This document shows, piece after piece, positions 25,544-48,910 of a DNA stretch of 64,000 nt. Origin of the DNA: an uncultured Vampirovibrionales bacterium (GTDB taxonomy: Bacteria > Cyanobacteriota > Vampirovibrionia > Vampirovibrionales > Vampirovibrionaceae); NCBI GenBank assembly GCA_964387265.1, contig CAYLWC010000012.1, positions 2,737 to 66,736 of the forward strand, given 5' to 3'. How positions within the stretch are numbered: position 1 is the stretch's first letter; each line of letters opens with the position of its first letter. The notes beneath the pieces are model-generated. The model saw nothing but the letters and a program-made list of their open reading frames with translations, had not been told where the DNA came from and did not search any database. Made by a program: the position numbers and the translations under genes.

Positions 25544-25546
25544 TTT

Positions 25547-28438: not shown

Positions 28439-29023
28439 ATGCCCCCATCTCACGCAACTCAACAGTCCTGCGCCCGACATCCGGCCATCGACACCCGTTT
28501 AACTTGTAGCAGCTGCGAAACCCCCATCTGCCCCCAGTGCATGGTGATGACCGAAGTGGGTCTCAAATGCCCGGCTTGCACGGGCAAAATCACCACCCAC
28601 CTCACCCAGCTCTCTCCCTGGCTATTGATCACTGGCACCAGCCTGGCCGCCTTGTTTGGCTTTGTCTACGGTCACGTGTATCCACTCATACTGAATATTG
28701 GGTTTATCGCCATTTTTGGGGTGCCTGTTCTGGGGCTCATACTCTGCTATCTACTGGGTGGGGGCTGCGGACGTCTGTTGCATCGAGCCGTTCAACACAA
28801 GCAAGGGCGGACGCTGTTTTGGGCCGTCACCGCCGGGGGGCTCGGCGGGTTTTTCTTTAGCCCGCTGGCAGGGGTCTTGCTGGATGGGCTCAATATCTTA
28901 CTGATGGTTCCTGACCTCCTCAAATCCGGCACCTCCAGCCAGTTTATCCTCTGGCGGCTGATCATTCACCTGCTGGCAGCCAGCTTGTTTCTCCGGGGGT
29001 TACAAAGCCCCATTCGTTTTTAG
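28439..29023 (+). CDS. Zinc-ribbon-containing membrane protein, hypothetical
   Basis: N-terminal CSSC…CPQC…CPAC cysteine pairs followed by about 4 hydrophobic helices. Confidence 0.4.
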   Translation: MPPSHATQQSCARHPAIDTRLTCSSCETPICPQCMVMTEVGLKCPACTGKITTHLTQLSPWLLITGTSLAALFGFVYGHVYPLILNIGFIAIFGVPVLGLILCYLLGGGCGRLLHRAVQHKQGRTLFWAVTAGGLGGFFFSPLAGVLLDGLNILLMVPDLLKSGTSSQFILWRLIIHLLAASLFLRGLQSPIRF

Positions 29024-31119: not shown

Positions 31120-31459
31120 CCGAACAACCCCCCAGATTCTGATCCTGCTGAAACTCTTGTTGATACAGAGGGTAGCAATAAAATAGCTCACAGACAATCC
31201 CCGTTGCCGATTCCCCCACACCGGTTCCAAACTATTGGAAATCATTCATAGACAGCACCGCTATTTTTGGCTAGGGTATCTGTTATATAAACTGAGAGAC
31301 CCCAGACAAAAAATTCCCCATTTTGTGATCTGGCCTTGACTGGCAATTGCGTTTACGCATAGTCCTCAGAAATCGAACGTGATTAGATAAAACTAATTTT
31401 TATTCACTAGGGTAAATATCTAAAAATACGTCGGCAGAACATGGAGCTCACTGACACCT

Positions 31460-32866
31460 ATGCAAGCTTTGACACGGGCATGGAATGCCATTTATAGCGA
31501 TCAACCCTACAGCGCAAGCAGAAACTTTTTGATCACCGCCATTTTCTGGCTCGTTTTTGGAACGACGATCGGCCTGGTAGCCGCCGCTCTGATGGCTTGG
31601 CCGGATCTGATTCACAACATTCCCCAGCTTTCATTTGGTCGCATCCGTCCCGTGCACATTAATGCGGTCTTGGTGGGCTGGCTGTCCATGGGGTATGTCG
31701 CTTGCATGTTCTATGTCGTACCGGTTCTGGTGGGGCGCAAAAGCCTGTGGAGTGAGAAACTGGGCAACCTGACCATGATTGCCTGGAACCTGGTGATGAT
31801 TATCGGCTTGACCAGTATTATGAATGGATACACCGAAGCTCGTGAGTACGCTGAATTAAACGGTCCGCTAGACTGGATGGTACTAGCCGCCTTACTCATG
31901 ACGGGGCTTAATGTCTATATGACTGCTTTAACCGGCCCGGAGAAAAAGTGGTACGTCAGCATCTGGTACATTTTGGGCGCGTTGTTCTGGTTCCCCATTG
32001 TCTATATGATTGGGAACCGGGCTTTTATTGCGTTTGATGGCCTGAATGACGCCATTGCCGGGTGGTTCTACGGACATAATATTTTAGGGATGTGGTTTAC
32101 CGTCGGTGGGGTCGGAATTCTCTATTACTTGCTTCCCAAGTTTTCCGGCAACCCGCTTTACAGCCATACTTTATCCATGATTGGCTTCTGGACCATTGCC
32201 ATGTTCTACGCCCCCACCGGAACCCACCACATTCTCCAGTCCCCGGTGCCAGAGTGGCTGAAGGCCATTGCTGTTATCTCCAGCGTTTTCCTGCTGGTGC
32301 CGGTCCTGACGGTTCTGGTGAACTTCTTTATGACCATGAAGGGTAAATGGCACCTCATGGCCGATCACTTGGCCCTGCGTTTTGCGGCTGCTTCTGGGTT
32401 GGCCTACTTGCTCACTTGTATGCAAGGGCCGTTTCAAGCCACCCGAGGGATTAACTGGTATCTGCACTTCAGCAACTGGGTGGTAGGCCACGCGCACTTG
32501 GCACTGCTAGCCACCTTTACCTTTATCGTGTTTTCCGCCAGTTACTATATCATCCCCAAAATTACGGGGCGAAAAATTTACAGCCGTCCGCTCACCATTT
32601 GGCACTTCTGGCTCAGCTTTATTGGCTGGATCTTGATGATGATTTCACTGACCATTGCCGGCTTGATTCAAGCGGCTGGCTGGCATTTCGCCTTGCCCGT
32701 GGATCAGTGGGCCATTGAGATGGAGCCCTACATGGTTGTCCGCTTCATTTCCGGCATCATGATTGTGGCAGGCCAAATACTGTATATGTTAAACATCTAC
32801 AAAACGGTTTTCTCCAAGGAGTATGAGCCCACACCGGCATCTCCCACGGGAATCGCCTACGTATAA
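31460..32866 (+). CDS. ccoN: Heme-copper oxidase C-family catalytic subunit (cbb3-type CcoN)
   Basis: About 12 TM helices. Conserved His ligands (…PVHINAV…, WFYGHNILG, TGTHHILQ, VVGHAHLAL). Followed directly by a CcoO-like gene. Confidence 0.8.
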   Translation: MQALTRAWNAIYSDQPYSASRNFLITAIFWLVFGTTIGLVAAALMAWPDLIHNIPQLSFGRIRPVHINAVLVGWLSMGYVACMFYVVPVLVGRKSLWSEKLGNLTMIAWNLVMIIGLTSIMNGYTEAREYAELNGPLDWMVLAALLMTGLNVYMTALTGPEKKWYVSIWYILGALFWFPIVYMIGNRAFIAFDGLNDAIAGWFYGHNILGMWFTVGGVGILYYLLPKFSGNPLYSHTLSMIGFWTIAMFYAPTGTHHILQSPVPEWLKAIAVISSVFLLVPVLTVLVNFFMTMKGKWHLMADHLALRFAAASGLAYLLTCMQGPFQATRGINWYLHFSNWVVGHAHLALLATFTFIVFSASYYIIPKITGRKIYSRPLTIWHFWLSFIGWILMMISLTIAGLIQAAGWHFALPVDQWAIEMEPYMVVRFISGIMIVAGQILYMLNIYKTVFSKEYEPTPASPTGIAYV

Positions 32867-32898
32867 GGTAACTTAAAGGGAAGAGGCTACCACCGCAG

Positions 32899-33936
32899 AT
32901 GGAACAGAGACTCAATTATCTAATCGCCGGTTGCTTCGTCGCACTGATCTTTTTGACCATTATTTTTGTCACCGCAATTTTGCCAGCAACCACCTTTCAG
33001 CCAGAGCCCACCGAGGCGGCGTTTAATTACGACCTGCCGGAAAATGCCCTGGTTAAAAAAGGGCGGGATGTCTACCGCCGGGAAGGCTGTTTCTATTGCC
33101 ATACCCAGTTTACCCGATATCAGGACCGGGAAAGTGGCGAAATGGTCCAGGCCGGGGATTACGTGTATGAGACCCCTCACCTGCTGGGAAGCGAGCGGAC
33201 CGGGCCGGATCTTTCCAACATCGGTGGAAAATACCCGGATGAATGGCACTGGGCGCACCATATGAACCCGCGGAAAGTGAAGCCGGGTTCCATTATGCCC
33301 TCTTTCTCCTACCTGTCTGATGAGGACATGACCGCCTTGATTGCCTACCTCCAGACCTTGGGGGCCAAACGGGAAGAAGTGGCTCGCCGCGGCACCCCGT
33401 CTCAAGATCCCAATAGTAAACATAAATGGGAAGATCCCCCAGCCACCTGGCTTGAGGCACCTCAAGAAATGCAGGATGACTGGGTGCGAATTGCCGAAAA
33501 CATTGATGTCAACAACTCAGCAATGGCCAACTCGGGACGCGGCATCTTTATGCAAAACTGTGCCGTGTGTCACGGGGTGACCGGCCGGGGGAATGGTCCT
33601 GTCAGCAGCACCATGCTCAAAAAGCCTGCCAACCTGACTCGACCCTTCTATACCGCTTATAGCGATGCCATGTGGTTCTGGAGAATCAAGGAAGGGGTGG
33701 CTGGTACCCGGATGCCTCGATGGGGACGTTCCCTCAGTGAAGAGGACATGGCGTATCTCGTCGCCTTTGTGAAAACCTTGCCGGTAGACGGCTCGATCCC
33801 GGCAGGGGAAATCGAAGTCACCCACTTTGGTCAGCTGGATGATATGAAAGTGATGAGCGAGAACTACAAAGAAATCGAGGAGCTGGGCGTGCTCTTTAGA
33901 AAAAGTCCCTACCATTACGGAGGTGGCCGCGAATGA
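32899..33936 (+). CDS. ccoO: CcoO-like mono-heme cytochrome c subunit with an additional C-terminal mono-heme cytochrome c domain
   Basis: N-terminal TM helix. CcoO motifs (GCFYCHTQ; RTGPDLSNIGGKYPDEWHWAHHMNP). A second CXXCH (CAVCHGVTGRGNGP…MP) in a CcoP-like C-terminal domain. Confidence 0.75.
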   Translation: MEQRLNYLIAGCFVALIFLTIIFVTAILPATTFQPEPTEAAFNYDLPENALVKKGRDVYRREGCFYCHTQFTRYQDRESGEMVQAGDYVYETPHLLGSERTGPDLSNIGGKYPDEWHWAHHMNPRKVKPGSIMPSFSYLSDEDMTALIAYLQTLGAKREEVARRGTPSQDPNSKHKWEDPPATWLEAPQEMQDDWVRIAENIDVNNSAMANSGRGIFMQNCAVCHGVTGRGNGPVSSTMLKKPANLTRPFYTAYSDAMWFWRIKEGVAGTRMPRWGRSLSEEDMAYLVAFVKTLPVDGSIPAGEIEVTHFGQLDDMKVMSENYKEIEELGVLFRKSPYHYGGGRE

Positions 33937-34106
33937 TTTGTCCATCTTGTATTTCCGGTGGAATTGGCCCTGGATACATTGCAGCCTTTGCCATCTGCGC
34001 CCTCTTTTTTATCTCAGCCGCAGCTGTGATGTTCTGGGCTTCCAAGAGCGGGCGGCTTGAAGGGCTGGAAGAGTCCAAGTACAAAATGCTGCAGGATGAT
34101 GAATAA
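33933..34106 (+). CDS. ccoS: CcoS/FixS-like small membrane peptide (cbb3 oxidase maturation), 57 aa
   Basis: Not in the ORF track (shorter than 60 aa). ATG overlaps the ccoO stop (ATGA). One TM helix. Tail …FWASKSGRLEGLEESKYKMLQDDE resembles the FixS tail …LWSLRSGQYDDLDG…ILLDDDD. Extra N-terminal CPSC. Confidence 0.4.
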   Translation: MICPSCISGGIGPGYIAAFAICALFFISAAAVMFWASKSGRLEGLEESKYKMLQDDE

Positions 34107-34120
34107 GGAAGAGGGAAGCT

Positions 34121-34285
34121 ATGAGCGAACCGAATCAGACACCAGATATCCCAGAACGGGTTGAAATGAAAGATTATGAAGAATTTGAAATCGGGGAACA
34201 CAAAGTACCCTGGTTTTTGTGGGTCTTTTTTACTTTCATTGTTCTTTGGGCGTCTGTGTCCTGGATCAAGTTTTTCGGATATTAA
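34121..34285 (+). CDS. Small membrane peptide resembling the CcoP N-terminal anchor helix, 54 aa
   Basis: Not in the ORF track. …DYEEFEIGEHKVPWFLWVFFTFIVLW… resembles the CcoP N-terminal …EEYDNPLPRWWFLLF… segment. SD GGAAGAGGGAAGCTATG. Confidence 0.4.
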   Translation: MSEPNQTPDIPERVEMKDYEEFEIGEHKVPWFLWVFFTFIVLWASVSWIKFFGY

Positions 34286-34308
34286 GCAAAGAGGTTTGGA
34301 TCTTGCCG

Positions 34309-35358
34309 ATGAAGGGATTGTCACAACCATATAGAATACTGGGCCGCCTGGGGCTACCGTTACTGGCGCTCACCGTGCTGGCCACCGGTTGTATTCAGAA
34401 AGCGGACGTTCAGCAAACGGCCCCCGTTGCAGCTGAGCCAATCATTGACCAGAAGTTGGCCATGGATGATTTCCGCTTCCCCTCCAAGGACCCTTCATTA
34501 AAGCGCGGCAAGGAGCTTTTTGAAAGCAACTGTATGCAGTGCCACGCCAATAGTTACTGGCAGCAGCCCAAAGTTCAGCAAAACTTGGCCTATACCACCC
34601 CCATAGATCTATACCTCTTTTTAACCAAGGGAGAAGCACCAAAAACCCTCTTGGTCAATAACGAGCGACGGGAAGTTCTGCCCAAGGAACACGCCCAAAA
34701 CGGTAAGCTGCTTTCCTTCCGCAATAATATGAGTAGTGATGATCGCTGGGCTGTATTATTTTATGCCCGCTACCTGGCCGGAGCCGGTGATTTCCACTCT
34801 CTTCGCAACCGGGTTCCTGATGCGGACATCGGTGCCATTTTTGGAGGAAACTGCGCGGTTTGTCATGGGACGCGCGGGTTTGGCGATGGACCATTGCACC
34901 TGGGTAAAACCGGAAACCATGAAGTCAAAGATGGGGTGATTAAGCATAATATGCTGCCGCCGCCAGCCAACTTCAACGATTATCAACGGCTGCTCAACCG
35001 AACGGACGCCCAACTCTTCAAGTATATCTGCGAAGGGATTTATCCTTCTGCCATGCCGTCCTGGTACGGGAATGTCAGCCGCGATTATGAGACTGGCAAG
35101 ATCAATTTCGTTTTTGATAACGAAATGATCTGGAACCTGGTCCGCCATGTTCGTGGGTTTACCTATGAAAACGACTTGGACGTTGATCCTGACACGGCAC
35201 CCAAAGGATGGATTGACTTCCAAACCTGTCACTCGGTGCCCACCAACCAACCTTGGACAGAGTTGATGAAAAAACACAGCCCCCCGCGCACCCCGCCGGC
35301 CAAGCCTGAGCCGTCGCGTGAAGGTGGCAACGGTCAGCAAGGAGCACATCGCACATGA
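34309..35358 (+). CDS. ccoP: Di-heme cytochrome c lipoprotein (CcoP soluble-domain-like)
   Basis: Internal ATG. Signal peptide with lipobox LATGC. Two CXXCH motifs (CMQCHAN; CAVCHGTRGFGDGP). Confidence 0.7.
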   Translation: MKGLSQPYRILGRLGLPLLALTVLATGCIQKADVQQTAPVAAEPIIDQKLAMDDFRFPSKDPSLKRGKELFESNCMQCHANSYWQQPKVQQNLAYTTPIDLYLFLTKGEAPKTLLVNNERREVLPKEHAQNGKLLSFRNNMSSDDRWAVLFYARYLAGAGDFHSLRNRVPDADIGAIFGGNCAVCHGTRGFGDGPLHLGKTGNHEVKDGVIKHNMLPPPANFNDYQRLLNRTDAQLFKYICEGIYPSAMPSWYGNVSRDYETGKINFVFDNEMIWNLVRHVRGFTYENDLDVDPDTAPKGWIDFQTCHSVPTNQPWTELMKKHSPPRTPPAKPEPSREGGNGQQGAHRT

Positions 35359-36011
35359 TCAACCGACGGGACTTTTTAAAAATTATTGTCAGCATTCCGA
35401 TTCTTGGTGGGCTGGCCCTGTTTGTCTCGCCTCTTTTTCGATACCTCCGGCCTACCTCTGGCCCATTAACCAGCACCAAAATTGATACCTCTGCCGCTTC
35501 CCCCCTGGAGTGGGAAGGGGATGGTGGACTATTTTCCAAGCCCGACATGCCAGAAGGCGAAAGGGAAGTCAGCTTCGACCTGACCGAATTTCCCGCACCC
35601 TGGTCAGCCCATACCTTTACTTTTGGTCAAAGAAGCCGGGAATATACTTTTAGAAATTTTCAGACCACCCAGATTCCGGGTTATGTCGTACGTTTGCCGG
35701 AAGATAAAGACGGGAAACCGGATTTTATCGTGGTCAGCCGCATTTGCCCGCACATGGGGTGCGTGTTCAATTTCTTACCGGAAGCCCATGAAGCAGCCGC
35801 GTACAACTACCCGCAGGCCAAAAACCCCTTGTTCGCCTGTCCTTGTCACCTCAGCGTGTTTGATCCGCTCCAGGAACAGGATATCGGTACTGCCGTAATA
35901 CGCGGCAAAGTGGTCAGTGGTCCGGCGCCTCGTCCACCTCGGCAGTTTACCTGGGCCATTGAAGGCGCTAGATTAGTCATCAAAGAAGCTGAGACCGGAG
36001 GGATTTCCTAG
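35355..36011 (+). CDS. Rieske [2Fe-2S] iron-sulfur protein with Tat signal
   Basis: Twin-arginine RRDFLK plus TM anchor. Rieske boxes CPHMGC … CPCHLS. 4-nt overlap with the upstream gene. Confidence 0.8.
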   Translation: MINRRDFLKIIVSIPILGGLALFVSPLFRYLRPTSGPLTSTKIDTSAASPLEWEGDGGLFSKPDMPEGEREVSFDLTEFPAPWSAHTFTFGQRSREYTFRNFQTTQIPGYVVRLPEDKDGKPDFIVVSRICPHMGCVFNFLPEAHEAAAYNYPQAKNPLFACPCHLSVFDPLQEQDIGTAVIRGKVVSGPAPRPPRQFTWAIEGARLVIKEAETGGIS

Positions 36012-36013
36012 TT

Positions 36014-37465
36014 ATGGCACGTGCATCGTTTGCAGATCTACCGAGTCAAGCCTGGCAGCACGTCAAAGAGCGCATCAATAAAATTGACGTGTTTGATGAA
36101 ACCAAGGTCGACAAGCAAAAAGACTCACCGTGGTACCAATTGGGCAGCATGTACTACCTGTTTTGGGTCGTGGTCATGGCCACGGGTGGCATCCTGATTG
36201 CTTTGTACCTTCCCACTACGGCGCAAGCCTATGATTCGGTTGGCGGACTCTCTCACAATGCCTTGGGCTCCATCCTCCGCGGTCTCCATAAGTACGGGGG
36301 CGATGCCATGATCATTGCCGCCACCTTGCGGATTTACCGGATGTGGTTCTCAGCCGAATACAAAAATAAGGGTGAGTTAACGTTTATTATCGCCATCCTC
36401 TTGTTGGTGGTCGCCATGTACTCCGGGTTGACTGGGTATCTGTTGATTTGGAACCAACGGGCGTTTTGGGCAACCAAGGTCTTTGCCACCTTCCCCACCT
36501 ATCTGGATATCACACCCACCTTCTGGAACTGGCCGTGGGATTTTGAGAACTACAACCGTACCTGGTTAATCCCCAACATCATTGGGGCTGTTACCAAAGT
36601 GATTGGGAACCTGACGCACCAGGGGATGAGTACTTCGCAAATCCTGATGGGGGGCAGCTCTATTGGGCAAGCCACCATGACCCGGTTCTACTCTCTCCAC
36701 TTTGCCTTTTCGCTCATCATGCTGGTTGTTACTGAAATTTACTTCTACAAAAACCGCATGAAACGGATTAACCTGAACCGAGGCGCTGTCTTGACCCTGT
36801 TGGGCATGCTGCTGTTTACCGCCATTATCTTCCCGGCAGAATCCGGCACCCGCGCCAACCCGGAAGTCACTCCGCTACCGATCCTCTCAGACTGGTACTT
36901 CCTGGCGCTGTATCAGATGCTGAAATATATGGATCCCTACTGGGCCACCATCTGGACTGTGGGGATTCCTTTTGTCACCATTGGTCTTACCTTTGTGGAT
37001 TTTGGAAACGAAACCAGCCCGTGGCGGCGGCCCATCTTTACGATGATTGGAATTTTGGCCATCATTGAGTTTATTGTGTTCTCTCTCCTGATTATTGCCA
37101 ATGTGGCCAATATCGAAACGGATCCGCCTTACTGGTTTGCCCACATGATTCTCTTTATCGCCATCGGGCAATTCTGGCACTGGGGTCTGTATAAACAACG
37201 CTTGCCGATGACGGTCTGGGTGTTGTTTAACATGATTACCAGCACCTGGTATCTGATCTTCTGGCATGTGATGGTGGGAGATTATCTGGCCCGATGGATT
37301 GACGGCCTGATGACAGGTACTACCACCCTTGAGAACCCGGCCAACCTGTACTGGAGCCTCATCTGGTTTGTCTTCTCGTTGGTTCAGATGCTGGCAGCTG
37401 GTTTTCTCTTCTGGCAAGACCGCAAGGCCCAGGAAGAAAAACGGCTTGAAGGAGCTACCGCATGA
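36014..37465 (+). CDS. Cytochrome b (long form with fused subunit-IV-like C-terminal part; Qo-site PEWY-like SDWYFLALY)
   Basis: Helix-B motif RGLHKYGGDAMIIAATLRIYRMWF and helix-D motif RFYSLHFAF…, each retaining only the first His. The positions of the second His are Arg and Tyr/Phe. Confidence 0.75.
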   Translation: MARASFADLPSQAWQHVKERINKIDVFDETKVDKQKDSPWYQLGSMYYLFWVVVMATGGILIALYLPTTAQAYDSVGGLSHNALGSILRGLHKYGGDAMIIAATLRIYRMWFSAEYKNKGELTFIIAILLLVVAMYSGLTGYLLIWNQRAFWATKVFATFPTYLDITPTFWNWPWDFENYNRTWLIPNIIGAVTKVIGNLTHQGMSTSQILMGGSSIGQATMTRFYSLHFAFSLIMLVVTEIYFYKNRMKRINLNRGAVLTLLGMLLFTAIIFPAESGTRANPEVTPLPILSDWYFLALYQMLKYMDPYWATIWTVGIPFVTIGLTFVDFGNETSPWRRPIFTMIGILAIIEFIVFSLLIIANVANIETDPPYWFAHMILFIAIGQFWHWGLYKQRLPMTVWVLFNMITSTWYLIFWHVMVGDYLARWIDGLMTGTTTLENPANLYWSLIWFVFSLVQMLAAGFLFWQDRKAQEEKRLEGATA

Positions 37466-37770
37466 TGACCGCTTCCACCCCGAAAAAACAGCCCCTGCAC
37501 CCCATACTCTGGTGGGTGCTGTTTGGTGTGGCCACGTTTCAATTGTCCCTGTGCCTGCAATCGTCCAGAGCGTTTTTCCTGGATACCAACTGGGGGAATG
37601 GCTTGCATTTGCTGGGGATGATTGCCCTGCTGGGTCTGGTGATGGGTGTTTTGATGTATGACAGTTACGTCAAGGAAAAGCACCAAGGGAAAATCCAGCG
37701 GCCGATTCGCTTGTTTGAGTGGCTCTATCAGCGCCAATATTCCAATAAAGGAGGCATGCACGTACTATGA
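37462..37770 (+). CDS. Small membrane protein (2 TM), operon-internal
   Basis: Start overlaps the upstream stop. Two hydrophobic helices. Confidence 0.45.
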   Translation: MMTASTPKKQPLHPILWWVLFGVATFQLSLCLQSSRAFFLDTNWGNGLHLLGMIALLGLVMGVLMYDSYVKEKHQGKIQRPIRLFEWLYQRQYSNKGGMHVL

Positions 37771-38021
37771 AATTGAAGATGAAGGACATTCTGGCCATTC
37801 TTTTAGCCATTCTTGCCAGTGCCGGCATCTTTGGCATGCTGGTGGGCGAGGGCAGCATCGTACCCGCCTCAGATAATGGCGAAATGCTGGAAGGGCTGAA
37901 AATGTACCTGACCGGCTTTGGCTGGATTTGCTTATTGGTCGGGGCAGCCTATGTCCTGACGGGTTATCGGGATCGGGTGGAGACCGATTTGCTTCACCCC
38001 GATGAAGAAGAACAGTCGTAA
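37767..38021 (+). CDS. Small membrane protein (2 TM), operon-internal
   Basis: Start overlaps the upstream stop. Two hydrophobic helices and an acidic tail. Confidence 0.45.
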   Translation: MKLKMKDILAILLAILASAGIFGMLVGEGSIVPASDNGEMLEGLKMYLTGFGWICLLVGAAYVLTGYRDRVETDLLHPDEEEQS

Positions 38022-38036
38022 GGAAGGAGTCATCAG

Positions 38037-39176
38037 GTGTATACCGAACCCTTGCAACGCGCAACCCTCTGGTTAGAAAAAGGGCTGAATGCGATTTTTT
38101 CCCAAAAATACAACCCCTTTTACTACCACGGGGCCCTGCCCAATTACTTTATCTGGGTCCTGTTTCTCTCCGGGCTGCTCTTATTTGCCTACTACATCCC
38201 GACCCTGGAAAACGCCTATAACTCGGTGAGCTACATCACCCACTCCATCCCATTTGGCAACGCGTTCCGAACCATCCATCGCTATGCTGGTGATGGGATG
38301 ATGATCTTTGTGATGCTGCACCTGGCGCGGGTCTGGTTTACCGATCGTTACCGCGAATACCGGATTGTCCCCTGGATTACCGGGGTGATTCTCTTGATTC
38401 TGACCTTCCTGGTAGGGTTAACCGGATATTTGCTGATCTGGGATCAGGAAGCGGTGACGCTCACCAACTTGACCGTCAACTTCCTCAATCAATTGCCGCT
38501 CATCGGACCGCCCACGGCGGAGTTCTTGATTGCCGGAAAAATCATTACCGATTACTCTTTAACCCGGTTCCTCTTTTTGCATTTGGCCATTCCCCTGGCC
38601 CTGATGTTTTTCCTCTGGATGCATTACATTCGGATTACCCGACCGGTGACCAACCCGCCGTTGGCTCTGGTGGTTCTGTTAACTGGGGGGTTATTTACCA
38701 TTGCCGGGGCGTATCCGGTGGAACTGGGAGAAGCCCCCAGCTTAACCGCAGTCAGCTCTACCGTGGAACTGGATTTACTTTACGCCTGGCCCCAATACTT
38801 GGTACTGCAAGGTGTTTCGCCTAGTCTGGTCTGGCTGCTAGTGCTCTTGGTTCCGGTTGGTTTACTGGTGCTACCCTACCTGCAGAAAAAAGCCCTGCGA
38901 GGCCAGTACGCCAACGTCATCCGAGAAAACTGTACAGGTTGCTCCCTGTGCTATCATGATTGCCCTTATGAAGCCATTACCATGGTGGATCGAGGCAACG
39001 ATGGCACCCGGTTCAAGCGTCTGGCCGTGGTGGATCCAGGTCGGTGTTCCAACTGCGGACTCTGTGTTGGCGCATGTGCCTTTAAGGCCATTGAAATCCC
39101 CCGGTGTGAAACTCCGGATGTTCTATCAGAAATTGAGTTAGCTTTAAGCCAGTCTTCCAATAAGGCTTCAGTGTGA
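38037..39176 (+). CDS. Cytochrome b (b6-like, four-His di-heme) fused to a C-terminal 2x[4Fe-4S] ferredoxin domain
   Basis: GTG start. Helix B IHRYAGDGMMIFVMLHLARVWF (H-x13-H). Helix D LFLHLAIPLALMFFLWMHY (H-x13-H). C-terminus CTGCSLCYHDCP … CSNCGLCVGACA. Confidence 0.7.
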   Translation: MYTEPLQRATLWLEKGLNAIFSQKYNPFYYHGALPNYFIWVLFLSGLLLFAYYIPTLENAYNSVSYITHSIPFGNAFRTIHRYAGDGMMIFVMLHLARVWFTDRYREYRIVPWITGVILLILTFLVGLTGYLLIWDQEAVTLTNLTVNFLNQLPLIGPPTAEFLIAGKIITDYSLTRFLFLHLAIPLALMFFLWMHYIRITRPVTNPPLALVVLLTGGLFTIAGAYPVELGEAPSLTAVSSTVELDLLYAWPQYLVLQGVSPSLVWLLVLLVPVGLLVLPYLQKKALRGQYANVIRENCTGCSLCYHDCPYEAITMVDRGNDGTRFKRLAVVDPGRCSNCGLCVGACAFKAIEIPRCETPDVLSEIELALSQSSNKASV

Positions 39177-39189
39177 GGTTTTTGCAACA

Positions 39190-39597
39190 ATGACCAAAGA
39201 AACAAAAATGATTGGAATTGTCTGTGAACGGAGTACCGATCTCACCGATCGCCTGGATGAGAACGGCTATCTGAAAGACAACCCCGATGTCAAAGTCATC
39301 ACCGTGCCGTGTAGTGGGATGATCCAGCCGATTATGCTGGAAACCGCCCTGAAAAAAGGCGCTGATGGGGTTTTCACCTGTGGCTGCCGGATCGGAGATT
39401 GCCACTACCGGGAAGGGAATAAATTCCTTCGCGAGCGCCTCCTAGGCAAGCGGATGCCCAAGCTGAAGCCCAATGTGGATAAAAGTCGCATTCAAGCCTA
39501 CTGGCTCTCGGCGCTAGAATACGATAAATTTAAAGACATGGTGAATGAATTCCATGAAACCTGTCAAAAGAAAGAAACAACGGCTGAAAAGTCATAG
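39190..39597 (+). CDS. MvhD/FlpD-family protein (methyl-viologen-reducing hydrogenase delta-subunit-like [2Fe-2S] domain)
   Basis: Motif …VPCSGMIQPIMLETALKKGADGVFTCGCRIGDCHYREGN… matches the FlpD/MvhD Cys pattern. 135 aa. Lies 14 nt after the cyt b-ferredoxin gene. Confidence 0.55.
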   Translation: MTKETKMIGIVCERSTDLTDRLDENGYLKDNPDVKVITVPCSGMIQPIMLETALKKGADGVFTCGCRIGDCHYREGNKFLRERLLGKRMPKLKPNVDKSRIQAYWLSALEYDKFKDMVNEFHETCQKKETTAEKS

Positions 39598-39742
39598 AGG
39601 AGAAGGTTGTTCTCATGGATAAGCGGGAAGATATTTCACTGTTTTTGAAGAATGTTTGGTTCTTTCTGTTTTATTTTGCCCTGTTACTGATGATTGCCAG
39701 CTTTGGCTTGATTGCAGAAACTTAAAAAGAGAGAGGAAAACC

Positions 39743-40150
39743 ATGGTCCATCACCCAGAACGCTCTGAACAAGAGTCCAAGCCTGGATATCGCATCCAGT
39801 GGTTCTTTCATGAATTCTGGCCAATCCTACTCTTTGGCTCCTTTTTTGTAATTATGTGTGCATTGCCCCTGATTTTATCGAGTCAATTTGCGGCCATGCG
39901 GGATTTTTCCACCTCGGATATCGTCTGGGGTCCTTATGGCTTATTGATTATCGGGGCCTTTTTGGTGGCCATCCTGCTGACGTTTTTTGCGCCCCGGTTG
40001 CTGGCTTGGTATCTCTTCCTCCTGGGTGTGTTGGCCTTGGTGTTGGCCGAAGGCACGGCGGCCTTCCGCGTGGGCGCCTCGGTTGCTATTGTATTTCTGG
40101 GCTTTGTCCTCTTTGGCATCTTTGTTCTCCCGCAAAAGCGTAACAAATAG
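39743..40150 (+). CDS. Hypothetical integral membrane protein (about 4 TM)
   Basis: Internal ATG after a GAGAGG SD. Hydrophobic. Preceded by a 36-aa hydrophobic mini-ORF (39614..39723). Confidence 0.4.
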   Translation: MVHHPERSEQESKPGYRIQWFFHEFWPILLFGSFFVIMCALPLILSSQFAAMRDFSTSDIVWGPYGLLIIGAFLVAILLTFFAPRLLAWYLFLLGVLALVLAEGTAAFRVGASVAIVFLGFVLFGIFVLPQKRNK

Positions 40151-40754: not shown

Positions 40755-41729
40755 TTAGCGGGCGGCTTTTTCCGGGGGGGCATTCTCCAAAACGGCCAGG
40801 GCATCTGGCCCCACCAGCATGGCTAGCGCATTTCTGGCTTTAAGATAAGCTTGCCGGGTTTGGAGCTCTTCTTGATAAGCCGCATCTTGCAGCGACGTGA
40901 CAATGGGCTGAAACACCGGCTCAATAGGACTTTCCTCAGCCCGGATCTGCAGGACCCGATGGGCTTCTTGGGCCAAATTCCACCGCTCGCGAGCATGGCG
41001 AAAATCATAGTAGCGTTCAATAACCTGCGTTTGCAGGGCTTCCACCTCTTTGGCCAAAATGACCATATCGGCATCGGTTACCCGCATCTTGGACATATCG
41101 GTCCCGTCGGCAAAAAGCATATCTTCTAGCATGTTGCTGCCAATCAGCCCGGCAGGGGTACCGGTCCACATGGAGCTTGCGACACCACCCAGGCGGGTCA
41201 CATTCTGCAAGAGGCGTTTTGCCAGACCATCGTTTTCAACCGGCTCCCCAGTCGCATCCCGACGTGACAGCTTTTCAATGGCATACCGAATCGCTCCGCT
41301 CCGCTCAACCGCCGCTTGCCACAACATCCCAATGTCCTTGGCCGCCAGCTCTTCATCATCCCGAAGCTCATGGTAAATGGCTCGAGCTTCCAGGTTCAGG
41401 GCCTCGCTCATTTCAACCAGCGTCTTTCGGGTCTCCGGGTCCAAGCCCTCCGGCAGAGCCAGCGCTGGCGGATTCTTTTCCGCCGGGGTCGATGTTTTCT
41501 TCAAACGCTCCGATGCCTTTGTCTTTTGGCTTGTGGTTTTCTTGGCGTCTGAGGCCTTTTTCTGCACGGCCTCTTTTTTGACGTCTTTCTTTGCCGCCCG
41601 CTGCGTATCCAGCAGCATGGGCGGGTTTTTTTCAGCCGCCGCCACCGGAATCGTCACGGACAGGGCCAGCAGTAACCCCAATACAGTGATAGTGCCTGTT
41701 TTCATTCTCTGTTGCATGTGCCCACTCAC
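40755..41729 (-). CDS. Secreted hypothetical protein (helical; TolC/outer-membrane-efflux-protein-like repeat?)
   Basis: Signal peptide. Shares the motif MLWQAAVERSGAIRYAIEKLS and a similar C-terminus with the upstream paralog. Confidence 0.4.
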   Translation of the reverse strand: MSGHMQQRMKTGTITVLGLLLALSVTIPVAAAEKNPPMLLDTQRAAKKDVKKEAVQKKASDAKKTTSQKTKASERLKKTSTPAEKNPPALALPEGLDPETRKTLVEMSEALNLEARAIYHELRDDEELAAKDIGMLWQAAVERSGAIRYAIEKLSRRDATGEPVENDGLAKRLLQNVTRLGGVASSMWTGTPAGLIGSNMLEDMLFADGTDMSKMRVTDADMVILAKEVEALQTQVIERYYDFRHARERWNLAQEAHRVLQIRAEESPIEPVFQPIVTSLQDAAYQEELQTRQAYLKARNALAMLVGPDALAVLENAPPEKAAR

Positions 41730-42871
41730 TCCTTGACCTGATCATCCGCCACGGGCAGATCCGGGGGCGGTGGCCCCACCAGACCGGACGGGACAGTCGC
41801 CATCGTCGCATCCGTTTGGCTCTTTAAGGTAGGGGTTAATTCCAGCTGCTCGGGCAGCTCCTGGGGCAGTTGGGGGGCCTGCCCAGCCGCAAATTGGGCG
41901 GATTCTTCCGGGTTAACCAACAGAGCCAGTTGCAGATCCGAAACCGGCTCGGGTCCGGCCAAACGTTCCAGCTGAATCCGGTATATTTTAGCCTGTTGCC
42001 TTAGCTTCAACTCATTCAGCGAGGCTTGGTAATAGGTCCGGGCGGCGGCCGTGATGGCCAATGCGTTTCTAGACTGCAGCGCCTCCGTATACAGGGCGTT
42101 GTTTTTCAACACCAGCTGGTGGGCTTCTGTCAGTTGCAACAAGGTATTTTTATAGCCATGATAATTTTCAACCAGCCGCACCTTTAGTTCATCAATGAGA
42201 CCTGCCAACTGAATCTGCTCGGTGGGCGTCAGAATATCCCCCGCCGGTTGCGGGTTGCCATTGACCATGTTTTGAGCCGCGTTCCCCAAGGCCATCGCCG
42301 TCATGTTCTGATAATAGCTGCTTCCACCTGCAACACCGGGCATCATGGTGGCCCCCATCGTGGCGCCTTGAATCATCAGGCTCAGGGTCTTTTTCATAAA
42401 CTGGCTGGATTTTTTAGGCTGCAGATCCACCGGGGTGCTGAGCTTTTCCAGAGAAAAGCGAATCACCGGATTACGTTCCACGGTGGCTTCCCACAGCTGC
42501 CGTAAATCCGCCTCATCCAGTTTTTGCTGCATGGTTTTTAATTCCTGCAGAGGCTCGGTGGTATACTGTACCCCCAACTCTGTCTCCAATTTTTGAATTT
42601 TCGGGGTGACCTTGAAGGCCGGGGTGGTCACTGCAGTCAAAGCCACCGGCTCCACCGCGTTATCCTCAGATGGCTGAAAGTGTTCCGGGGTCAGGGGGCC
42701 ATTGATCACAGCCAGAGGCGGTAAAAAGTTCCGCTGGGGTAATTTCAATTCTTCTTGCGTTGCTTCTTTTTTCTTCTCTTTCCCCCAAGCAAACACAGCC
42801 GTTGGCGCCAAGGCCAGCATGGGAGCTAAAAGCAGGATAATCCCAACTTTCGCACTATGTATCAATCGCAT
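41726..42871 (-). CDS. Secreted hypothetical protein, paralog of the downstream gene
   Basis: Signal peptide. Motif LRQLWEATVERNPVIRFSLEKLS. 4-nt overlap with the next gene. Confidence 0.4.
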   Translation of the reverse strand: MRLIHSAKVGIILLLAPMLALAPTAVFAWGKEKKKEATQEELKLPQRNFLPPLAVINGPLTPEHFQPSEDNAVEPVALTAVTTPAFKVTPKIQKLETELGVQYTTEPLQELKTMQQKLDEADLRQLWEATVERNPVIRFSLEKLSTPVDLQPKKSSQFMKKTLSLMIQGATMGATMMPGVAGGSSYYQNMTAMALGNAAQNMVNGNPQPAGDILTPTEQIQLAGLIDELKVRLVENYHGYKNTLLQLTEAHQLVLKNNALYTEALQSRNALAITAAARTYYQASLNELKLRQQAKIYRIQLERLAGPEPVSDLQLALLVNPEESAQFAAGQAPQLPQELPEQLELTPTLKSQTDATMATVPSGLVGPPPPDLPVADDQVKE

Positions 42872-43021: not shown

Positions 43022-43669
43022 CTAGTACTGCTGGATTTCTTCGGACCCACTCACCGGACGGGCATTTTGTAAATCCATGGCATAGTAAGATCCCGGCTCA
43101 ATATACCCTTCTGCGGCATACCCCCGTTGCTGTGGTGTCCCAGCAAGCGGTTCTGCCGAAAACACCAGCCCGGATATTTGCGTTAACCCCTTATAGCTAT
43201 AACGATCAAACACCAGTAAGTGCCATGGTCCCCCATACACTGGTGGTAAAGGCTGGCCCGCTTCACTATGGCAAAGCAATGCTTTGCCTGATAGGGCATC
43301 GGCCAGCGGCAAACACTCCTGCTCCCCGGCCAGGTTTACCTGATGAATAAATTGGGCTTCCGGCAACGGGTTGACCCGCCGGATCAACTCTTCCAATAAA
43401 ACCCCTTGCCACTCGGAGCGATACGTCCAGCCCCCCACATCCACCAGTCGCCGGTTTTGGGTAACCTGAGGCCAGCTTTTCAACTCGGCATCCGTAAACT
43501 GGCCTGGATTTTCCACCAAGCCACTTATCGTTAGGATCCATTCATGCGGCTGGATGGACACTATTCCTTGTTGATACACGGCAGGCCAAGGGCGGGCAGT
43601 CGCCAGGGGGTTCTCCTGGGCAGCCGTGGCTTGGGAACGGGTGTATAAACTATGAAACATGGAAGCCAT
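43022..43669 (-). CDS. Molybdopterin-binding oxidoreductase domain protein (sulfite-oxidase / YedY-MsrP family)
   Basis: Moco-binding-domain pattern by eye. Shorter than MsrP and no Tat signal seen. Confidence 0.45.
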   Translation of the reverse strand: MASMFHSLYTRSQATAAQENPLATARPWPAVYQQGIVSIQPHEWILTISGLVENPGQFTDAELKSWPQVTQNRRLVDVGGWTYRSEWQGVLLEELIRRVNPLPEAQFIHQVNLAGEQECLPLADALSGKALLCHSEAGQPLPPVYGGPWHLLVFDRYSYKGLTQISGLVFSAEPLAGTPQQRGYAAEGYIEPGSYYAMDLQNARPVSGSEEIQQY

Positions 43670-43843
43670 TGTATCACAAGGTCAGCCCGGAAAAGAGGAT
43701 CGATCCCCCAGCCGGTCCGTCCTCAGAGCCGAAGTCGAAACTTTTGGTTGACCTGGCACGTCTCCAAAATCAACGTTTTCTTTTTCGGGGAAACGTGTTT
43801 ATGGTATATCATAGAAAAAAGGAAGAGCAGGGTTTTCCACCAG

Positions 43844-44929: not shown

Positions 44930-44944
44930 AAGCGTTTTTGCTAA

Positions 44945-45664: not shown

Positions 45665-45679
45665 GACAGGACGCTCCTT

Positions 45680-48894: not shown

Positions 48895-48910
48895 AGGAGT
48901 GTAATCCCCC

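What the first reader, a model, noticed from the sequence alone, without database searches (positions are those of the whole stretch)
31460..39597. Composite operon: cbb3-type oxidase plus Rieske/cytochrome b complex carrying a cytoplasmic Fe-S exit module
Eleven tightly packed or overlapping genes encode, in order:
- CcoN (31460-32866).
- CcoO with an extra heme-c domain.
- Two mini-peptides (CcoS-like and CcoP-anchor-like).
- A di-heme CcoP-like lipoprotein.
- A Tat-Rieske protein.
- A long Qo-type cytochrome b.
- Two 2-TM peptides.
- A second cytochrome b fused to a 2x[4Fe-4S] ferredoxin domain.
- An MvhD/FlpD-like [2Fe-2S] protein.

Canonical bc1, b6f and cbb3 operons do not contain ferredoxin or MvhD modules.

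The architecture suggests one quinol-oxidising supercomplex. One electron would go Rieske to cytochrome c to the cbb3 oxidase. The other would pass across the membrane via b hemes to cytoplasmic Fe-S clusters. That would be a Rieske/cyt b-based electron bifurcation or reverse-electron-transport device generating low-potential reductant. Such devices have been proposed for chemolithotrophs but not with this subunit set.
Basis: partly seen in the sequence, partly recalled or inferred. Interest (0 to 1): 0.85.

Follow-up and report, generated by a model that had tools for sequence, protein, structure and literature searches.

The report
Oxidase operon with two-part cytochrome b
This is a conserved 12-gene respiratory cassette in a non-photosynthetic relative of cyanobacteria, in which the usual cytochrome b of complex III is replaced by two different cytochrome b proteins, one missing its inner heme and the other wired to iron-sulfur clusters inside the cell, an arrangement I could not find described.

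Summary
All 11 ORFs lie where stated, and domain searches support nearly every assignment. I add a twelfth gene, a conserved 36-aa peptide at 39615-39725.

The window comes from a Vampirovibrionales bacterium (Melainabacteria). The same gene order is kept in 22 complete related loci. It is also kept in 6 of 6 distant loci, which include Armatimonadota, Obscuribacterales and Acidobacteriota/Holophagaceae, each with different flanking genes. It is therefore one inherited unit.

Three findings are new:
- The long Qo-type cytochrome b lacks both histidines for the cytoplasmic-side heme (Arg/Lys and Tyr instead) in all 29 full-length copies.
- The second cytochrome b keeps all four histidines. It is a six-helix cytochrome b (A-F), and its 2x[4Fe-4S] domain lies in the cytoplasm.
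- In Gemmatimonadota and two other lineages, cytochrome b, ferredoxin and MvhD form one polypeptide next to other heme-copper oxidase and copper-handling genes.

Best reading: a quinol-to-O2 supercomplex with a heterodimeric cytochrome b core, whose only route across the membrane ends in a cytoplasmic Fe-S wire. The direction of flow and the cytoplasmic partner are unknown. Bifurcation to low-potential reductant remains a minority possibility.

Papers mention a Melainabacteria "complex III-IV operon" but not these features. I rate it a new variant of a known kind.

The parts
31336..31363 (+). Possible sigma-70-type promoter (TTGACT-16-CATAGT) in the 214-nt gap upstream of ccoN
   Evidence: Consensus scan only. 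The number of such sites in the region is no higher than in shuffled sequence, so this is weak.
31460..32866 (+). CcoN, catalytic subunit I of a divergent C-family (cbb3-type) heme-copper oxidase, 468 aa
   Evidence: Pfam COX1 282.8 bits. NCBIfam ccoN 275.9 bits, below its equivalog cutoff of 583.
32899..33936 (+). CcoO (FixO) fused to an extra C-terminal mono-heme cytochrome c domain, 345 aa, one N-terminal TM anchor
   Evidence: FixO 124 bits; Cytochrom_C/Cytochrome_CBB3 at residues 209-294. TM segment 9-27.
33933..34106 (+). 57-aa single-TM peptide, weakly CcoS/FixS-like
   Evidence: FixS 21.9 bits against a cutoff of 23.1. The equivalent ORF in Obscuribacterales locus L049 carries a FixS hit.
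34121..34285 (+). 54-aa single-TM peptide, family unknown
   Evidence: No Pfam or NCBIfam hit. Conserved at 53-84% identity in related loci.
34309..35358 (+). Di-heme c-type cytochrome with signal peptide (ORF opens at GTG 34219; probable start ATG 34309). Candidate link between the Rieske protein and the oxidase.
   Evidence: Two cytochrome c domains. Weak similarity to CcoP and to actinobacterial QcrC.
35355..36011 (+). Tat-exported Rieske [2Fe-2S] protein, 218 aa
   Evidence: Pfam Rieske 20.4 bits against a cutoff of 20.3. RRDFLK motif. C131, H133, C136, C162, C164 and H165 are invariant in 29 copies.
36014..37465 (+). cytb1: long cytochrome b (b6-like N domain plus subunit-IV-like C domain plus extension). 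Has an SDWY Qo motif and only the p-side heme ligands (H92, H229). The n-side ligand positions are R106 and Y243.
   Evidence: Pfam. Alignments to solved cytochrome b6. Conservation.
37462..37770 (+). 102-aa two-TM protein, conserved across phyla in this position
   Evidence: Hydropathy. Alignment with the equivalents in L048-L053.
37767..38021 (+). 84-aa two-TM protein, poorly conserved in sequence but always present in this position
38037..39176 (+). cytbFd: six-helix cytochrome b (helices A-F). All four heme histidines are present (H81, H95, H182, H196). It has a degenerate Qo-like motif (DLLY) and a C-terminal cytoplasmic 2x[4Fe-4S] ferredoxin domain.
   Evidence: Pfam. PDB alignments. Invariant ligands in 32 copies. 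hhalign of helices E-F: 96.8% probability. AlphaFold2 gives six TM helices. Foldseek matches full-length cytochrome b.
39190..39597 (+). MvhD/FlpD-type [2Fe-2S] protein, 135 aa, soluble
   Evidence: FlpD 89.5 bits. 77 bits to MvhD of PDB 5odc. C12, C41, C66 and C71 are invariant in 32 cassette copies and 20 fused proteins.
39615..39725 (+). Twelfth gene: 36-aa single-TM peptide with conserved C-terminal FGLIAE motif
   Evidence: tblastn hits in about 25 Vampirovibrionales loci. Equivalent 41-47-aa ORFs follow FlpD in L048, L049, L051, L052 and L053, and the same C-terminal motif ends a longer 84-aa ORF in L050.

Best explanation
**What it is.** The 12 genes encode one self-contained quinol-to-oxygen respiratory supercomplex. 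It combines a C-family (cbb3-type) oxidase, c-type cytochromes that link it to a Rieske protein, and a non-canonical Rieske/cytochrome b module.

**The unusual core.** The cytochrome b core is built from two different proteins instead of two copies of one.
- cytb1 supplies a Qo-type quinol-oxidation site and only the outer (p-side) heme.
- cytbFd supplies a full outer-plus-inner heme pair. Its inner end abuts its own cytoplasmic 2x[4Fe-4S] domain and the [2Fe-2S] protein MvhD.

**Proposed electron path.**
1. Quinol is oxidised at cytb1.
2. One electron goes Rieske -> cytochromes c -> oxidase -> O2.
3. The other goes to the cytb1 outer heme.
4. It crosses the known heme bL-bL bridge to cytbFd and descends to the cytbFd inner heme.
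5. There it is in electrical contact with the cytoplasmic Fe-S wire.

**Shown:** gene content, cofactor ligands, topology, co-inheritance, and the natural fusion of cytochrome b, ferredoxin and MvhD.

**Inferred:** the heterodimer, the heme-to-heme crossing, and that the Fe-S wire is the n-side end of the low-potential chain.

**Unknown:**
- Whether electrons leave through the wire to a cytoplasmic acceptor.
- Whether electrons enter through it.
- Whether a quinone-reduction site is kept.
For: 1. **Co-inheritance.** The gene order COX1 / FixO-cyt c / small peptides / cyt c / Rieske / cytb1 / two small TM proteins / cytb-Fer4 / FlpD / tiny peptide is identical in 22 complete Vampirovibrionales loci. 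It is also identical in 6 of 6 loci at 40-52% identity from other lineages, including Armatimonadota, Obscuribacterales and Acidobacteriota. The flanking genes differ in each.
2. **Tight packing.** Stop/start overlaps or gaps of 2-32 nt run through the cluster.
3. **cytb1 heme ligands.** In alignment with solved cytochrome b6, cytb1 has Arg in place of His100 and Tyr in place of His202. It keeps His86 and His187.
   - Across 24 copies these positions are R/K and Y/F.
   - Only H92 and H229 are invariant histidines in 29 full-length copies, and a Glu two residues before the Tyr is invariant.
   - In a search of 1.84 billion representatives, the 27 clusters with E<=1e-30 plus one just below (P0121-P0148) form a distinct family. 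Every member that covers these positions shows this pattern, while ordinary cytochromes b below them are HHHH with PEWY.
4. **cytbFd cofactor ligands.** cytbFd keeps all four heme histidines and all eight cluster cysteines in 32 copies.
5. **Topology.** Six TM helices, with the N-terminus on the n-side by homology to b6. Loop charges follow the positive-inside rule, and there is no export signal. The ferredoxin domain is therefore cytoplasmic.
6. **Natural fusion.** In 20 loci from Gemmatimonadota, Thermoanaerobaculia and a Rhodospirillales MAG, cytochrome b, ferredoxin and MvhD form one polypeptide. This shows they act together.
7. **Hdr-like wire.** The ferredoxin domain and MvhD map colinearly onto the C-terminal ferredoxin and MvhD domains of HdrA2, a known electron wire.
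8. **Precedent for the crossing.** Electron transfer between the two bL hemes of a bc1 dimer at catalytic rates is established experimentally (review PMC7908018, section 3.3, read).
Against: - No physical evidence exists for a cytb1/cytbFd heterodimer, and I could not model the complex.
- cytbFd keeps helices E-F with a degenerate PEWY-like motif. It might therefore have its own quinone site and work independently.
- The fused cytb-Fd-MvhD homologues occur without a nearby Rieske or cytb1 gene.
- Two Vampirovibrionales loci (L017, L019) have cytbFd-MvhD away from the rest of the cassette.
- No gene for a cytoplasmic electron acceptor or donor appears in the cassette gene tables.
- Moving an electron inward to low-potential Fe-S clusters works against the membrane potential. 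This is a thermodynamic argument from general knowledge, not a test.
Confidence: 0.55

Rival explanations
1. Same integrated complex, but the Fe-S wire is an electron input. A cytoplasmic donor such as reduced ferredoxin feeds electrons through MvhD and the 2x[4Fe-4S] domain to the inner heme of cytbFd and to an n-side quinone site. A Q-cycle-like quinone reduction would be completed with one electron from Qo and one from the cytoplasm, much like the long-proposed ferredoxin-to-plastoquinone route through cytochrome b6f.
For: - Electron flow from low-potential Fe-S clusters to b hemes and quinone is downhill (general knowledge).
- The n-side face of cytbFd is highly conserved: N26, P27, Y29, Y30, H31, G32, R199, T201, P203. 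An invariant His31 lies next to the position of the b6 cysteine that binds heme cn.
- Melainabacteria are reported to have a complex I lacking NuoEFG that may use ferredoxin (PMC6349859). Ferredoxin-linked respiration is therefore plausible in the lineage.
Against: - The bc1 Qi-site histidine position is Thr in Vampirovibrionales and Ala in Gemmatimonadota-type proteins.
- No quinone-reduction site could be identified.
- No donor enzyme is encoded nearby.
Confidence: 0.2
2. cytbFd-MvhD is a separate two-heme transmembrane electron conduit that serves heme-copper oxidases in general. It might carry cytoplasmic electrons outward to reduce copper, a copper chaperone or the oxidase itself, by analogy with ferric/cupric reductases or the cbb3 assembly factor CcoG. 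It would be co-transcribed with the Rieske/cytochrome b module without being part of its core.
For: - The fused homologue lies beside a COX1-family subunit I, a subunit II carrying a CuA motif, SCO1/SenC, CopD and an Rrf2 regulator in Gemmatimonadota.
- In a Rhodospirillales MAG (L026) it directly follows SCO1 on the same strand.
- In Thermoanaerobaculia it follows COX1 on the same strand.
- The window cassette also carries a weakly CcoS-like assembly peptide.
- cytbFd-MvhD can be separated from the rest (L017, L019).
Against: - It leaves cytb1 without any exit for the electron on its single heme.
- cytb1-type cytochromes b were found with cytbFd and FlpD in every context examined: 29 of 29 complete cassettes.
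- cytbFd is flanked by translationally coupled small membrane subunits shared with cytb1.
- cytbFd has no similarity to CcoG/FixG families.
Confidence: 0.17
3. An ordinary tandem of a conventional bc-type complex and a cbb3 oxidase that happens to be followed by unrelated ferredoxin-like and MvhD-like genes.
For: Complex III and IV genes are adjacent or functionally coupled in other bacteria, for example actinobacterial bcc-aa3 and the bc1-cbb3 supercomplexes (titles listed).
Against: - The arrangement is conserved across at least four named phyla, with a different neighbourhood in each of the six distant loci.
- The cytochrome b is not conventional, because it has lost its n-side heme ligands.
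- The ferredoxin domain is covalently fused to a cytochrome b.
- MvhD is fused to that protein in other phyla.
Confidence: 0.03

Closest known systems
Melainabacteria 'complex III-IV operon' (Soo et al. 2017 as cited in bioRxiv 10.1101/531145; Matheus Carnevali et al. 2019, PMC6349859)
   Same: This is the same locus type: a type C heme-copper oxidase next to 'petB, petB, petC' in aerobic Melainabacteria.
   Different: Those papers annotate the genes as b6f subunits or 'two cytochrome bc oxidases'. In the text I could read there is no mention of the ferredoxin fusion, MvhD, the missing heme ligands, the small subunits, or the same cassette in other phyla.
Kuenenia stuttgartiensis Rieske/cytochrome b complexes with a cytoplasmic NAD(P) oxidoreductase subunit (Kartal et al. 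2013 proposal; PMC12954380)
   Same: A Rieske/cytochrome b complex with an extra cytoplasmic redox module on the n-side. It is proposed to divert the low-potential electron from quinol oxidation to a cytoplasmic acceptor instead of a Qi site.
   Different: - The cytoplasmic module here is a 2x[4Fe-4S] domain plus MvhD, not a flavoprotein.
- No catalytic acceptor site is evident.
- The high-potential branch here is an O2 reductase, not multiheme cytochromes.
- The cytochrome b here is split into two unlike proteins, one lacking the n-side heme.
Canonical cytochrome bc1 / b6f homodimer with H-shaped electron transfer (PMC7908018)
   Same: Rieske protein, Qo-type motif, b6-like four-helix bundle, and a bL-bL bridge as a possible inter-subunit path.
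   Different: - Canonical complexes are homodimers with two hemes per cytochrome b and a Qi/Qn site.
- Here one cytochrome b has one heme.
- The other carries Fe-S clusters.
- No cytochrome c1 or f homologue was detected.
Actinobacterial cytochrome bcc-aa3 and proteobacterial bc1-cbb3 supercomplexes
   Same: Complex III and IV are wired directly, with a di-heme c-type cytochrome as a candidate bridge. There are weak hits to QcrC and structural matches of cytbFd to QcrB chains.
   Different: Those have conventional two-heme cytochrome b homodimers and no cytoplasmic Fe-S subunits.
Hdr/Qmo-type membrane modules (HdrDE, QmoABC) and the HdrA-MvhD electron wire
   Same: A di-heme membrane cytochrome b coupled to cytoplasmic [4Fe-4S] clusters and an MvhD-type [2Fe-2S] centre. 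The Fer4 and MvhD parts align colinearly with the HdrA2 C-terminus and with solved HdrA and MvhD chains.
   Different: - The membrane part here is a bc-type cytochrome b (PF00033). From general knowledge, HdrE and QmoC use a NarI-type cytochrome b; this was not tested here.
- No HdrA-like flavoprotein or CCG-domain catalytic subunit is present in the cassette.

Membership tests
C-family (cbb3-type) heme-copper oxidase | Subunit I of the COX1 superfamily closest to CcoN | tested here: met
   COX1 282.8 bits. The best NCBIfam model is ccoN at 275.9 bits, below the equivalog cutoff of 583, so this is a divergent member.
C-family (cbb3-type) heme-copper oxidase | Mono-heme CcoO (FixO) subunit | tested here: met
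   FixO 124.1 bits against a cutoff of 29.6.
C-family (cbb3-type) heme-copper oxidase | Membrane-anchored di-heme CcoP subunit | tested here: inconclusive
   No single CcoP-like protein exists. An extra c domain is fused to CcoO, and a separate di-heme cytochrome scores 29.3 bits to ccoP against a cutoff of 180. The 54-aa peptide has no FixP_N hit.
Rieske/cytochrome b complex (bc1/b6f type) | Rieske protein with CxH...CxCH cluster ligands and Tat export | tested here: met
   Ligands are invariant in 29 copies. RRDFLK motif. The Pfam score is only marginal: 20.4 against 20.3.
Rieske/cytochrome b complex (bc1/b6f type) | Cytochrome b with four histidines binding two b hemes | tested here: not met
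   cytb1 has only H92 and H229; the other two positions are R106 and Y243. The feature is met by the second protein, cytbFd.
Rieske/cytochrome b complex (bc1/b6f type) | PEWY-type Qo motif in the ef loop | tested here: met
   SDWY in cytb1, with D293, W294 and Y295 invariant. cytbFd has a degenerate DLLY/DWFY at the homologous place.
Rieske/cytochrome b complex (bc1/b6f type) | n-side quinone reduction site (Qi/Qn), or heme cn bound to Cys35 in b6f | tested here: inconclusive
   No Cys at the b6 Cys35 position in either protein (Q in cytb1, Y in cytbFd). The bc1 His201-equivalent is Thr. The presence of another kind of site cannot be judged from sequence.
Rieske/cytochrome b complex (bc1/b6f type) | Homodimeric cytochrome b core | not testable with these tools
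   A heterodimer is inferred from complementary losses. It needs a structure or a multimer prediction with cofactors.
MvhD/FlpD [2Fe-2S] protein | FlpD domain with conserved cluster cysteines | tested here: met
   FlpD 89.5 bits against a cutoff of 22.3. 77 bits to PDB 5odc chain D. Four Cys are invariant and aligned to Cys of 5odc_D.
MvhD/FlpD [2Fe-2S] protein | Association with a hydrogenase or HdrA-type flavoprotein | tested here: not met
   No Mvh, Hdr or flavoprotein gene appears in the cassette gene tables of the six looked-up contexts or among the Pfam-scanned ORFs of the window.
2x[4Fe-4S] bacterial-type ferredoxin domain | Two CxxCxxCxxxC motifs | tested here: met
   C299/302/305/309 and C337/340/343/347 are invariant in 32 copies. 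Fer4_7 38.8 bits against a cutoff of 27.
Anammox-type NAD(P)-reducing Rieske/cytochrome b complex | Cytoplasmic NAD(P) oxidoreductase (flavoprotein) subunit and multiheme c subunits | tested here: not met
   No such domains are found in any of the 12 products.
CcoG/FixG cbb3 assembly factor | FixG-type polyferredoxin membrane protein | tested here: not met
   No FixG-related family appears among the Pfam or NCBIfam hits of cytbFd, whose membrane part is a cytochrome b.

The most novel reading that the evidence does not exclude
This would be a natural heterodimeric Rieske/cytochrome b complex in which the Qi site has been replaced by a cytoplasmic Fe-S exit (2x[4Fe-4S] plus MvhD [2Fe-2S]). Quinol oxidation would be a true quinone-based electron bifurcation. 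One electron would go to O2 through a built-in cbb3 oxidase. The other would emerge in the cytoplasm to reduce a low-potential carrier such as ferredoxin, NAD(P)+ via a partner, or a thiol system. Such a respiratory design has so far only been hypothesised, for anammox bacteria. Here it would sit in aerobes from at least four named phyla, including cultured Holophagaceae.
Probability: 0.22. Interest if true: 0.92.

Novelty: new variant of a known kind. Interest (0 to 1): 0.75.

Why it matters
- **The dimer question in complex III.** A cytochrome b core made of one single-heme and one two-heme subunit would be a natural counterpart of the engineered cross-inactivated bc1 dimers. Those dimers were used to show that electrons cross between monomers. 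A natural version would make a long-debated question directly testable: what the dimer and the bL-bL bridge are for.
- **Where the low-potential electron can go.** A cytoplasmic Fe-S wire on the n-side would widen the known options for the low-potential electron of quinol oxidation. The closest parallel is the unproven proposal for anammox Rieske/cytochrome b complexes.
- **Origin of cytochrome b6f.** These genes in Melainabacteria have been read as b6f subunits, possibly inherited from the common ancestor with Cyanobacteria (PMC6349859). Two observations advise caution with that inference. The same cassette occurs with different neighbours in Armatimonadota, Acidobacteriota and other lineages. 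The cytochromes b are also not b6-like in their cofactor sites.
- **Tractability.** Close relatives of the cytb1-type cytochrome b, the marker of this cassette, occur in cultured bacteria (Mesoterricola silvestris, Geothrix sp.). The cassette context was looked up only for an uncultured Holophagaceae-cluster representative (L052). Biochemistry and cryo-EM should be feasible once the cassette is confirmed in those genomes.

Tried and rejected
- **Literature.** Combinations of Rieske, cytochrome b, MvhD/FlpD, cbb3, Melainabacteria, Vampirovibrio, Obscuribacter and Geothrix found no description of the ferredoxin/MvhD module or of the heme loss. One further attempt was rejected for its syntax. Soo et al. 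2017 (Science) is not held, so its supplement could not be checked.
- **NCBIfam.** No product reaches a curated cutoff, so no ready-made name applies.
- **Small proteins.** Pfam at E<=10 gives nothing usable for the 54-, 102-, 84- and 36-aa products.
- **Terminator and promoter scans.** These were uninformative. Terminator-like sites lie inside genes, and promoter-like sites are no more frequent than in shuffled sequence.
- **AlphaFold2 of cytbFd.**
  - It gave a confident membrane part but a ferredoxin domain below pLDDT 50, so heme-to-cluster geometry could not be judged.
  - No coordinates or inter-chain confidence are returned.
- **Considered and rejected.**
  - Heme cn-type b6f: no Cys35 equivalent.
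  - CcoG identity: no family hit.
  - An alternative histidine ligand for a second heme in cytb1: only two invariant His.
  - p164 (39743-40150) as part of the cassette: conserved only in Vampirovibrionales and absent after FlpD in the other phyla.

Full report
**1. What is in the sequence**

Spacing is tight:
- Four junctions overlap by 4 nt: CcoO/57-aa, di-heme c/Rieske, cytb1/102-aa and 102-aa/84-aa.
- The remaining gaps are 2 to 32 nt.
- A 214-nt gap precedes ccoN.

Pfam supports the assignments:

| Product | Result |
|---|---|
| CcoN | COX1, 282.8 bits |
| CcoO | FixO, 124 bits, plus a second cytochrome c domain |
| Di-heme protein | two cytochrome c domains |
| Rieske | 20.4 bits against a cutoff of 20.3 |
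| 483-aa cytochrome b | N- and C-terminal domains |
| 379-aa protein | Cytochrome_B, 104 bits, then two [4Fe-4S] motifs (Fer4_7, 38.8 bits) |
| 135-aa protein | FlpD/MvhD, 89.5 bits against a cutoff of 22.3 |

- The 57-aa peptide is only weakly FixS-like (21.9 against 23.1).
- The 54-aa peptide has no family support at all.
- The di-heme cytochrome probably starts at ATG 34309.
- Its lipobox is imperfect.
- No product reaches a curated NCBIfam cutoff, so all are divergent members of their families.

**2. Origin and conservation**

The ferredoxin-fused cytochrome b has 61-75% identical relatives in 25 genomes labelled Vampirovibrio, Vampirovibrionales or Melainabacteria. The window therefore comes from that order of non-photosynthetic Cyanobacteriota.

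- A tblastn of all window products against these loci shows the full gene order in 22 of them.
- One further locus is cut by a contig end.
- Two (L017, L019) have only cytbFd-MvhD, behind unrelated genes.

A twelfth gene was missed. It is a 36-aa single-TM peptide at 39615-39725 with a C-terminal FGLIAE motif. It is found in about 25 Vampirovibrionales loci and, as a 41-47-aa ORF, after FlpD in other phyla.

**3. The long cytochrome b has lost one heme site**

HMMER alignments to solved cytochrome b6 place Arg where His100 should be and Tyr where His202 should be. His86 and His187 are kept.

- In 24 copies the two positions are R(20)/K(3) and Y(23)/F(1), with one sequence gapped at the first position.
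- In 29 full-length copies, including six from other lineages, the only invariant histidines are H92 and H229. A Glu (E241) two residues before the Tyr is invariant.
- A second bis-histidine heme on the cytoplasmic side is thus excluded by sequence.
- The Qo motif is SDWY.

A search of 1.84 billion representative proteins shows that this is a distinct family. The 27 clusters with E<=1e-30, plus one just below (P0121-P0148), form it. Every member that covers these positions has Arg or Lys at the helix-B position, and almost all have the Glu and an S/PDWY motif. The ordinary cytochromes b that follow are HHHH with PEWY.

**4. The second cytochrome b is complete across the membrane and ends in the cytoplasm**

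cytbFd keeps all four heme histidines (H81, H95, H182, H196) and all eight cysteines of two CxxCxxCxxxC motifs in 32 copies.

Evidence that it is a six-helix cytochrome b:
- AlphaFold2 (mean pLDDT 70) gives six long membrane helices. The ferredoxin part is of low confidence.
- Foldseek aligns 275-320 columns with full-length cytochromes b of bc1 and bcc complexes.
- A profile-profile comparison shows helices 5 and 6 are homologous to helices E and F of cytochrome b (probability 96.8%, E 2.4e-10).
- In that comparison, D(L/W)(L/F)(Y/F) sits where PEWY sits.

Evidence that the ferredoxin domain is cytoplasmic:
- The N-terminus is on the n-side by homology to b6, and there are six helices.
- Loop charges follow the positive-inside rule.
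- There is no export signal.

**5. MvhD belongs to cytbFd**

- MvhD scores 77 bits to the solved MvhD of PDB 5odc.
- Four cysteines (C12, C41, C66, C71) are invariant in 32 cassette copies and align with cysteines of 5odc_D.
- In 20 loci from Gemmatimonadota/Longimicrobiales, Thermoanaerobaculia and a Rhodospirillales MAG, cytochrome b, ferredoxin and MvhD are one polypeptide of about 525 aa. Pfam confirmed this on two examples. Such natural fusions are good evidence that the parts work together.
- The ferredoxin domain and MvhD also map colinearly onto positions 571-647 and 650-770 of the HdrA2 model. This is the same two-part electron wire found in heterodisulfide reductase complexes.

**6. 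The cassette is one unit, present in several phyla**

A profile search with distant cytb1-type sequences returned proteins named from Armatimonadota, Obscuribacterales, Chloroflexota and Holophagaceae. The Holophagaceae set includes the cultured Mesoterricola silvestris and Geothrix sp..

I looked up six of them. All six contigs carry, in the same order:
- COX1
- FixO-cytochrome c
- one or two tiny ORFs
- a cytochrome c (in L051 this gene lies after FlpD instead)
- Rieske
- cytb1
- two small membrane proteins
- cytochrome b-Fer4
- FlpD
- a tiny terminal ORF ending in the FGLIAE-type motif

The flanking genes are different each time. This argues for a single functional unit and, given the patchy distribution, for lateral spread. 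I did not test the latter by phylogeny.

**7. How it most likely works**

Three things are shown:
- One cytochrome b has a Qo-type site and only the outer heme.
- A second has both hemes and a cytoplasmic Fe-S chain of three clusters.
- The two are always inherited together with a Rieske protein and an oxidase.

Electron transfer between the two outer hemes of a bc1 dimer is experimentally established (PMC7908018).

The most economical inference is a cytb1/cytbFd heterodimer:
1. Quinol is oxidised at cytb1.
2. One electron goes through Rieske and c-type cytochromes to the cbb3-type oxidase.
3. The other goes from the cytb1 outer heme to the cytbFd outer heme.
4. It continues to the cytbFd inner heme, next to the Fe-S wire.

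What happens at the inner end is open:
- Electrons may exit to a cytoplasmic acceptor.
- Electrons may enter from a cytoplasmic donor.
- Both routes may coexist with a quinone site.

No acceptor or donor enzyme is encoded in the cassette. Inward transfer to low-potential clusters also has to pay for the membrane potential. I therefore give the bifurcation reading about 0.2.

**8. A serious rival**

The fused cytb-Fd-MvhD homologues lie next to other oxidase and copper genes:
- A COX1-family subunit I (208 bits).
- A subunit II with a CuA-type CxExCxxxHxxM motif. Its COX2 score of 19.7 is below the cutoff of 22.
- SCO1/SenC, CopD and an Rrf2 regulator in Gemmatimonadota.
- SCO1 directly upstream on the same strand in a Rhodospirillales MAG.

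No Rieske or cytb1 gene is nearby. The module is thus associated with heme-copper oxidases of two different families. It could be a general transmembrane electron conduit for oxidase supply or copper handling.

Against this rival as the whole story in the window: cytb1 would then have no exit for the electron on its single heme, and it was never found without cytbFd and FlpD.

**9. Comparison with the literature**

[quoted passage not shown] 2017).
- They are also reported to carry 'petB, petB, petC' next to a type C oxidase, read as b6f subunits (PMC6349859 and its supplement).
- The V. chlorellavorus genome paper simply lists complexes I-IV and a cbb3 oxidase (PMC4451040).
- None of the ten searches found a mention of the ferredoxin fusion, MvhD or the missing heme ligands.
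- I could not read Soo et al. 2017 itself.

**10. Verdict**

- The system is a new variant of the Rieske/cytochrome b family coupled to a cbb3-type oxidase.
- It is of high interest to bioenergetics and should be testable in cultured bacteria.

Noticed in passing
window 24248-28275 (- strand): Three-gene GlcDEF-like glycolate oxidase/dehydrogenase set. It comprises an FAD-linked oxidase (26755-28275), a second FAD_binding_4 protein (25547-26764), and an HdrD/GlcF-like protein with a 4Fe-4S dicluster and two CCG domains (24248-25543). It lies about 3 kb upstream of the cassette on the other strand. Glycolate use would suit a predator of green algae. No link to MvhD was tested.
   Followed up: partly
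cytbFd residue His31 (window 38127-38129): An extra histidine is invariant in all 32 cassette copies. It lies one residue after the position that aligns with Cys35 of cytochrome b6, the residue that binds heme cn. Possible roles include a ligand or hydrogen-bond partner on the n-side, or part of the docking site for the ferredoxin domain. Unexplained.
   Followed up: partly
L027-L047 (for example L030 5884-12984; L026 4180-7368; L043 6679-11533): Stand-alone cytochrome b-ferredoxin-MvhD fusion proteins (about 525 aa) in Gemmatimonadota, Thermoanaerobaculia and a Rhodospirillales MAG. They are always followed by a conserved ~180-aa protein with no family. They usually lie next to a COX1-family subunit I, a CuA-motif subunit II, SCO1, CopD, a cupin and an Rrf2 regulator.
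   Followed up: partly
L017 9044-12129 and L019 2845-5391: Two Vampirovibrionales contigs carry cytbFd and MvhD without the oxidase, Rieske and cytb1 genes upstream. Instead they are preceded by a shared 241-250-aa ORF of unknown family. Whether the rest of the cassette lies elsewhere in those genomes could not be checked.
   Followed up: no
window 39743-40150 (+): A ~135-aa membrane protein lies between the cassette and rpsP; hydropathy finds three TM segments. It is conserved at 38-49% identity in most Vampirovibrionales loci but is absent after FlpD in the other phyla. No family hit.
   Followed up: partly
window 40755-42871 (- strand): Two adjacent signal-peptide proteins (324 and 381 aa) share similar central segments, for example '...AVERSGAIRYAIEKLS...' against '...TVERNPVIRFSLEKLS...'. 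They have no Pfam hits and are probably tandem paralogues of unknown function.
   Followed up: no
window 14210-22967 (- strand): A cluster containing fatty-acid beta-oxidation-type genes: aldehyde dehydrogenase, thiolase, 3-hydroxyacyl-CoA dehydrogenase and two enoyl-CoA hydratases. The other ORFs in the range were not scanned.
   Followed up: no
window 47995-53180 (+): Flagellar export apparatus genes fliP, fliR-like (Bac_export_1), flhB and flhA. These are consistent with the flagellated Vampirovibrio lifestyle. Lpt lipopolysaccharide-transport genes lie at 43652-46810.
   Followed up: no
window 28439-29023 (+): A 194-aa membrane protein with an N-terminal cysteine-rich segment. It gives a sub-threshold B-box zinc-finger hit (22.2 against a cutoff of 24.1).
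   Followed up: no
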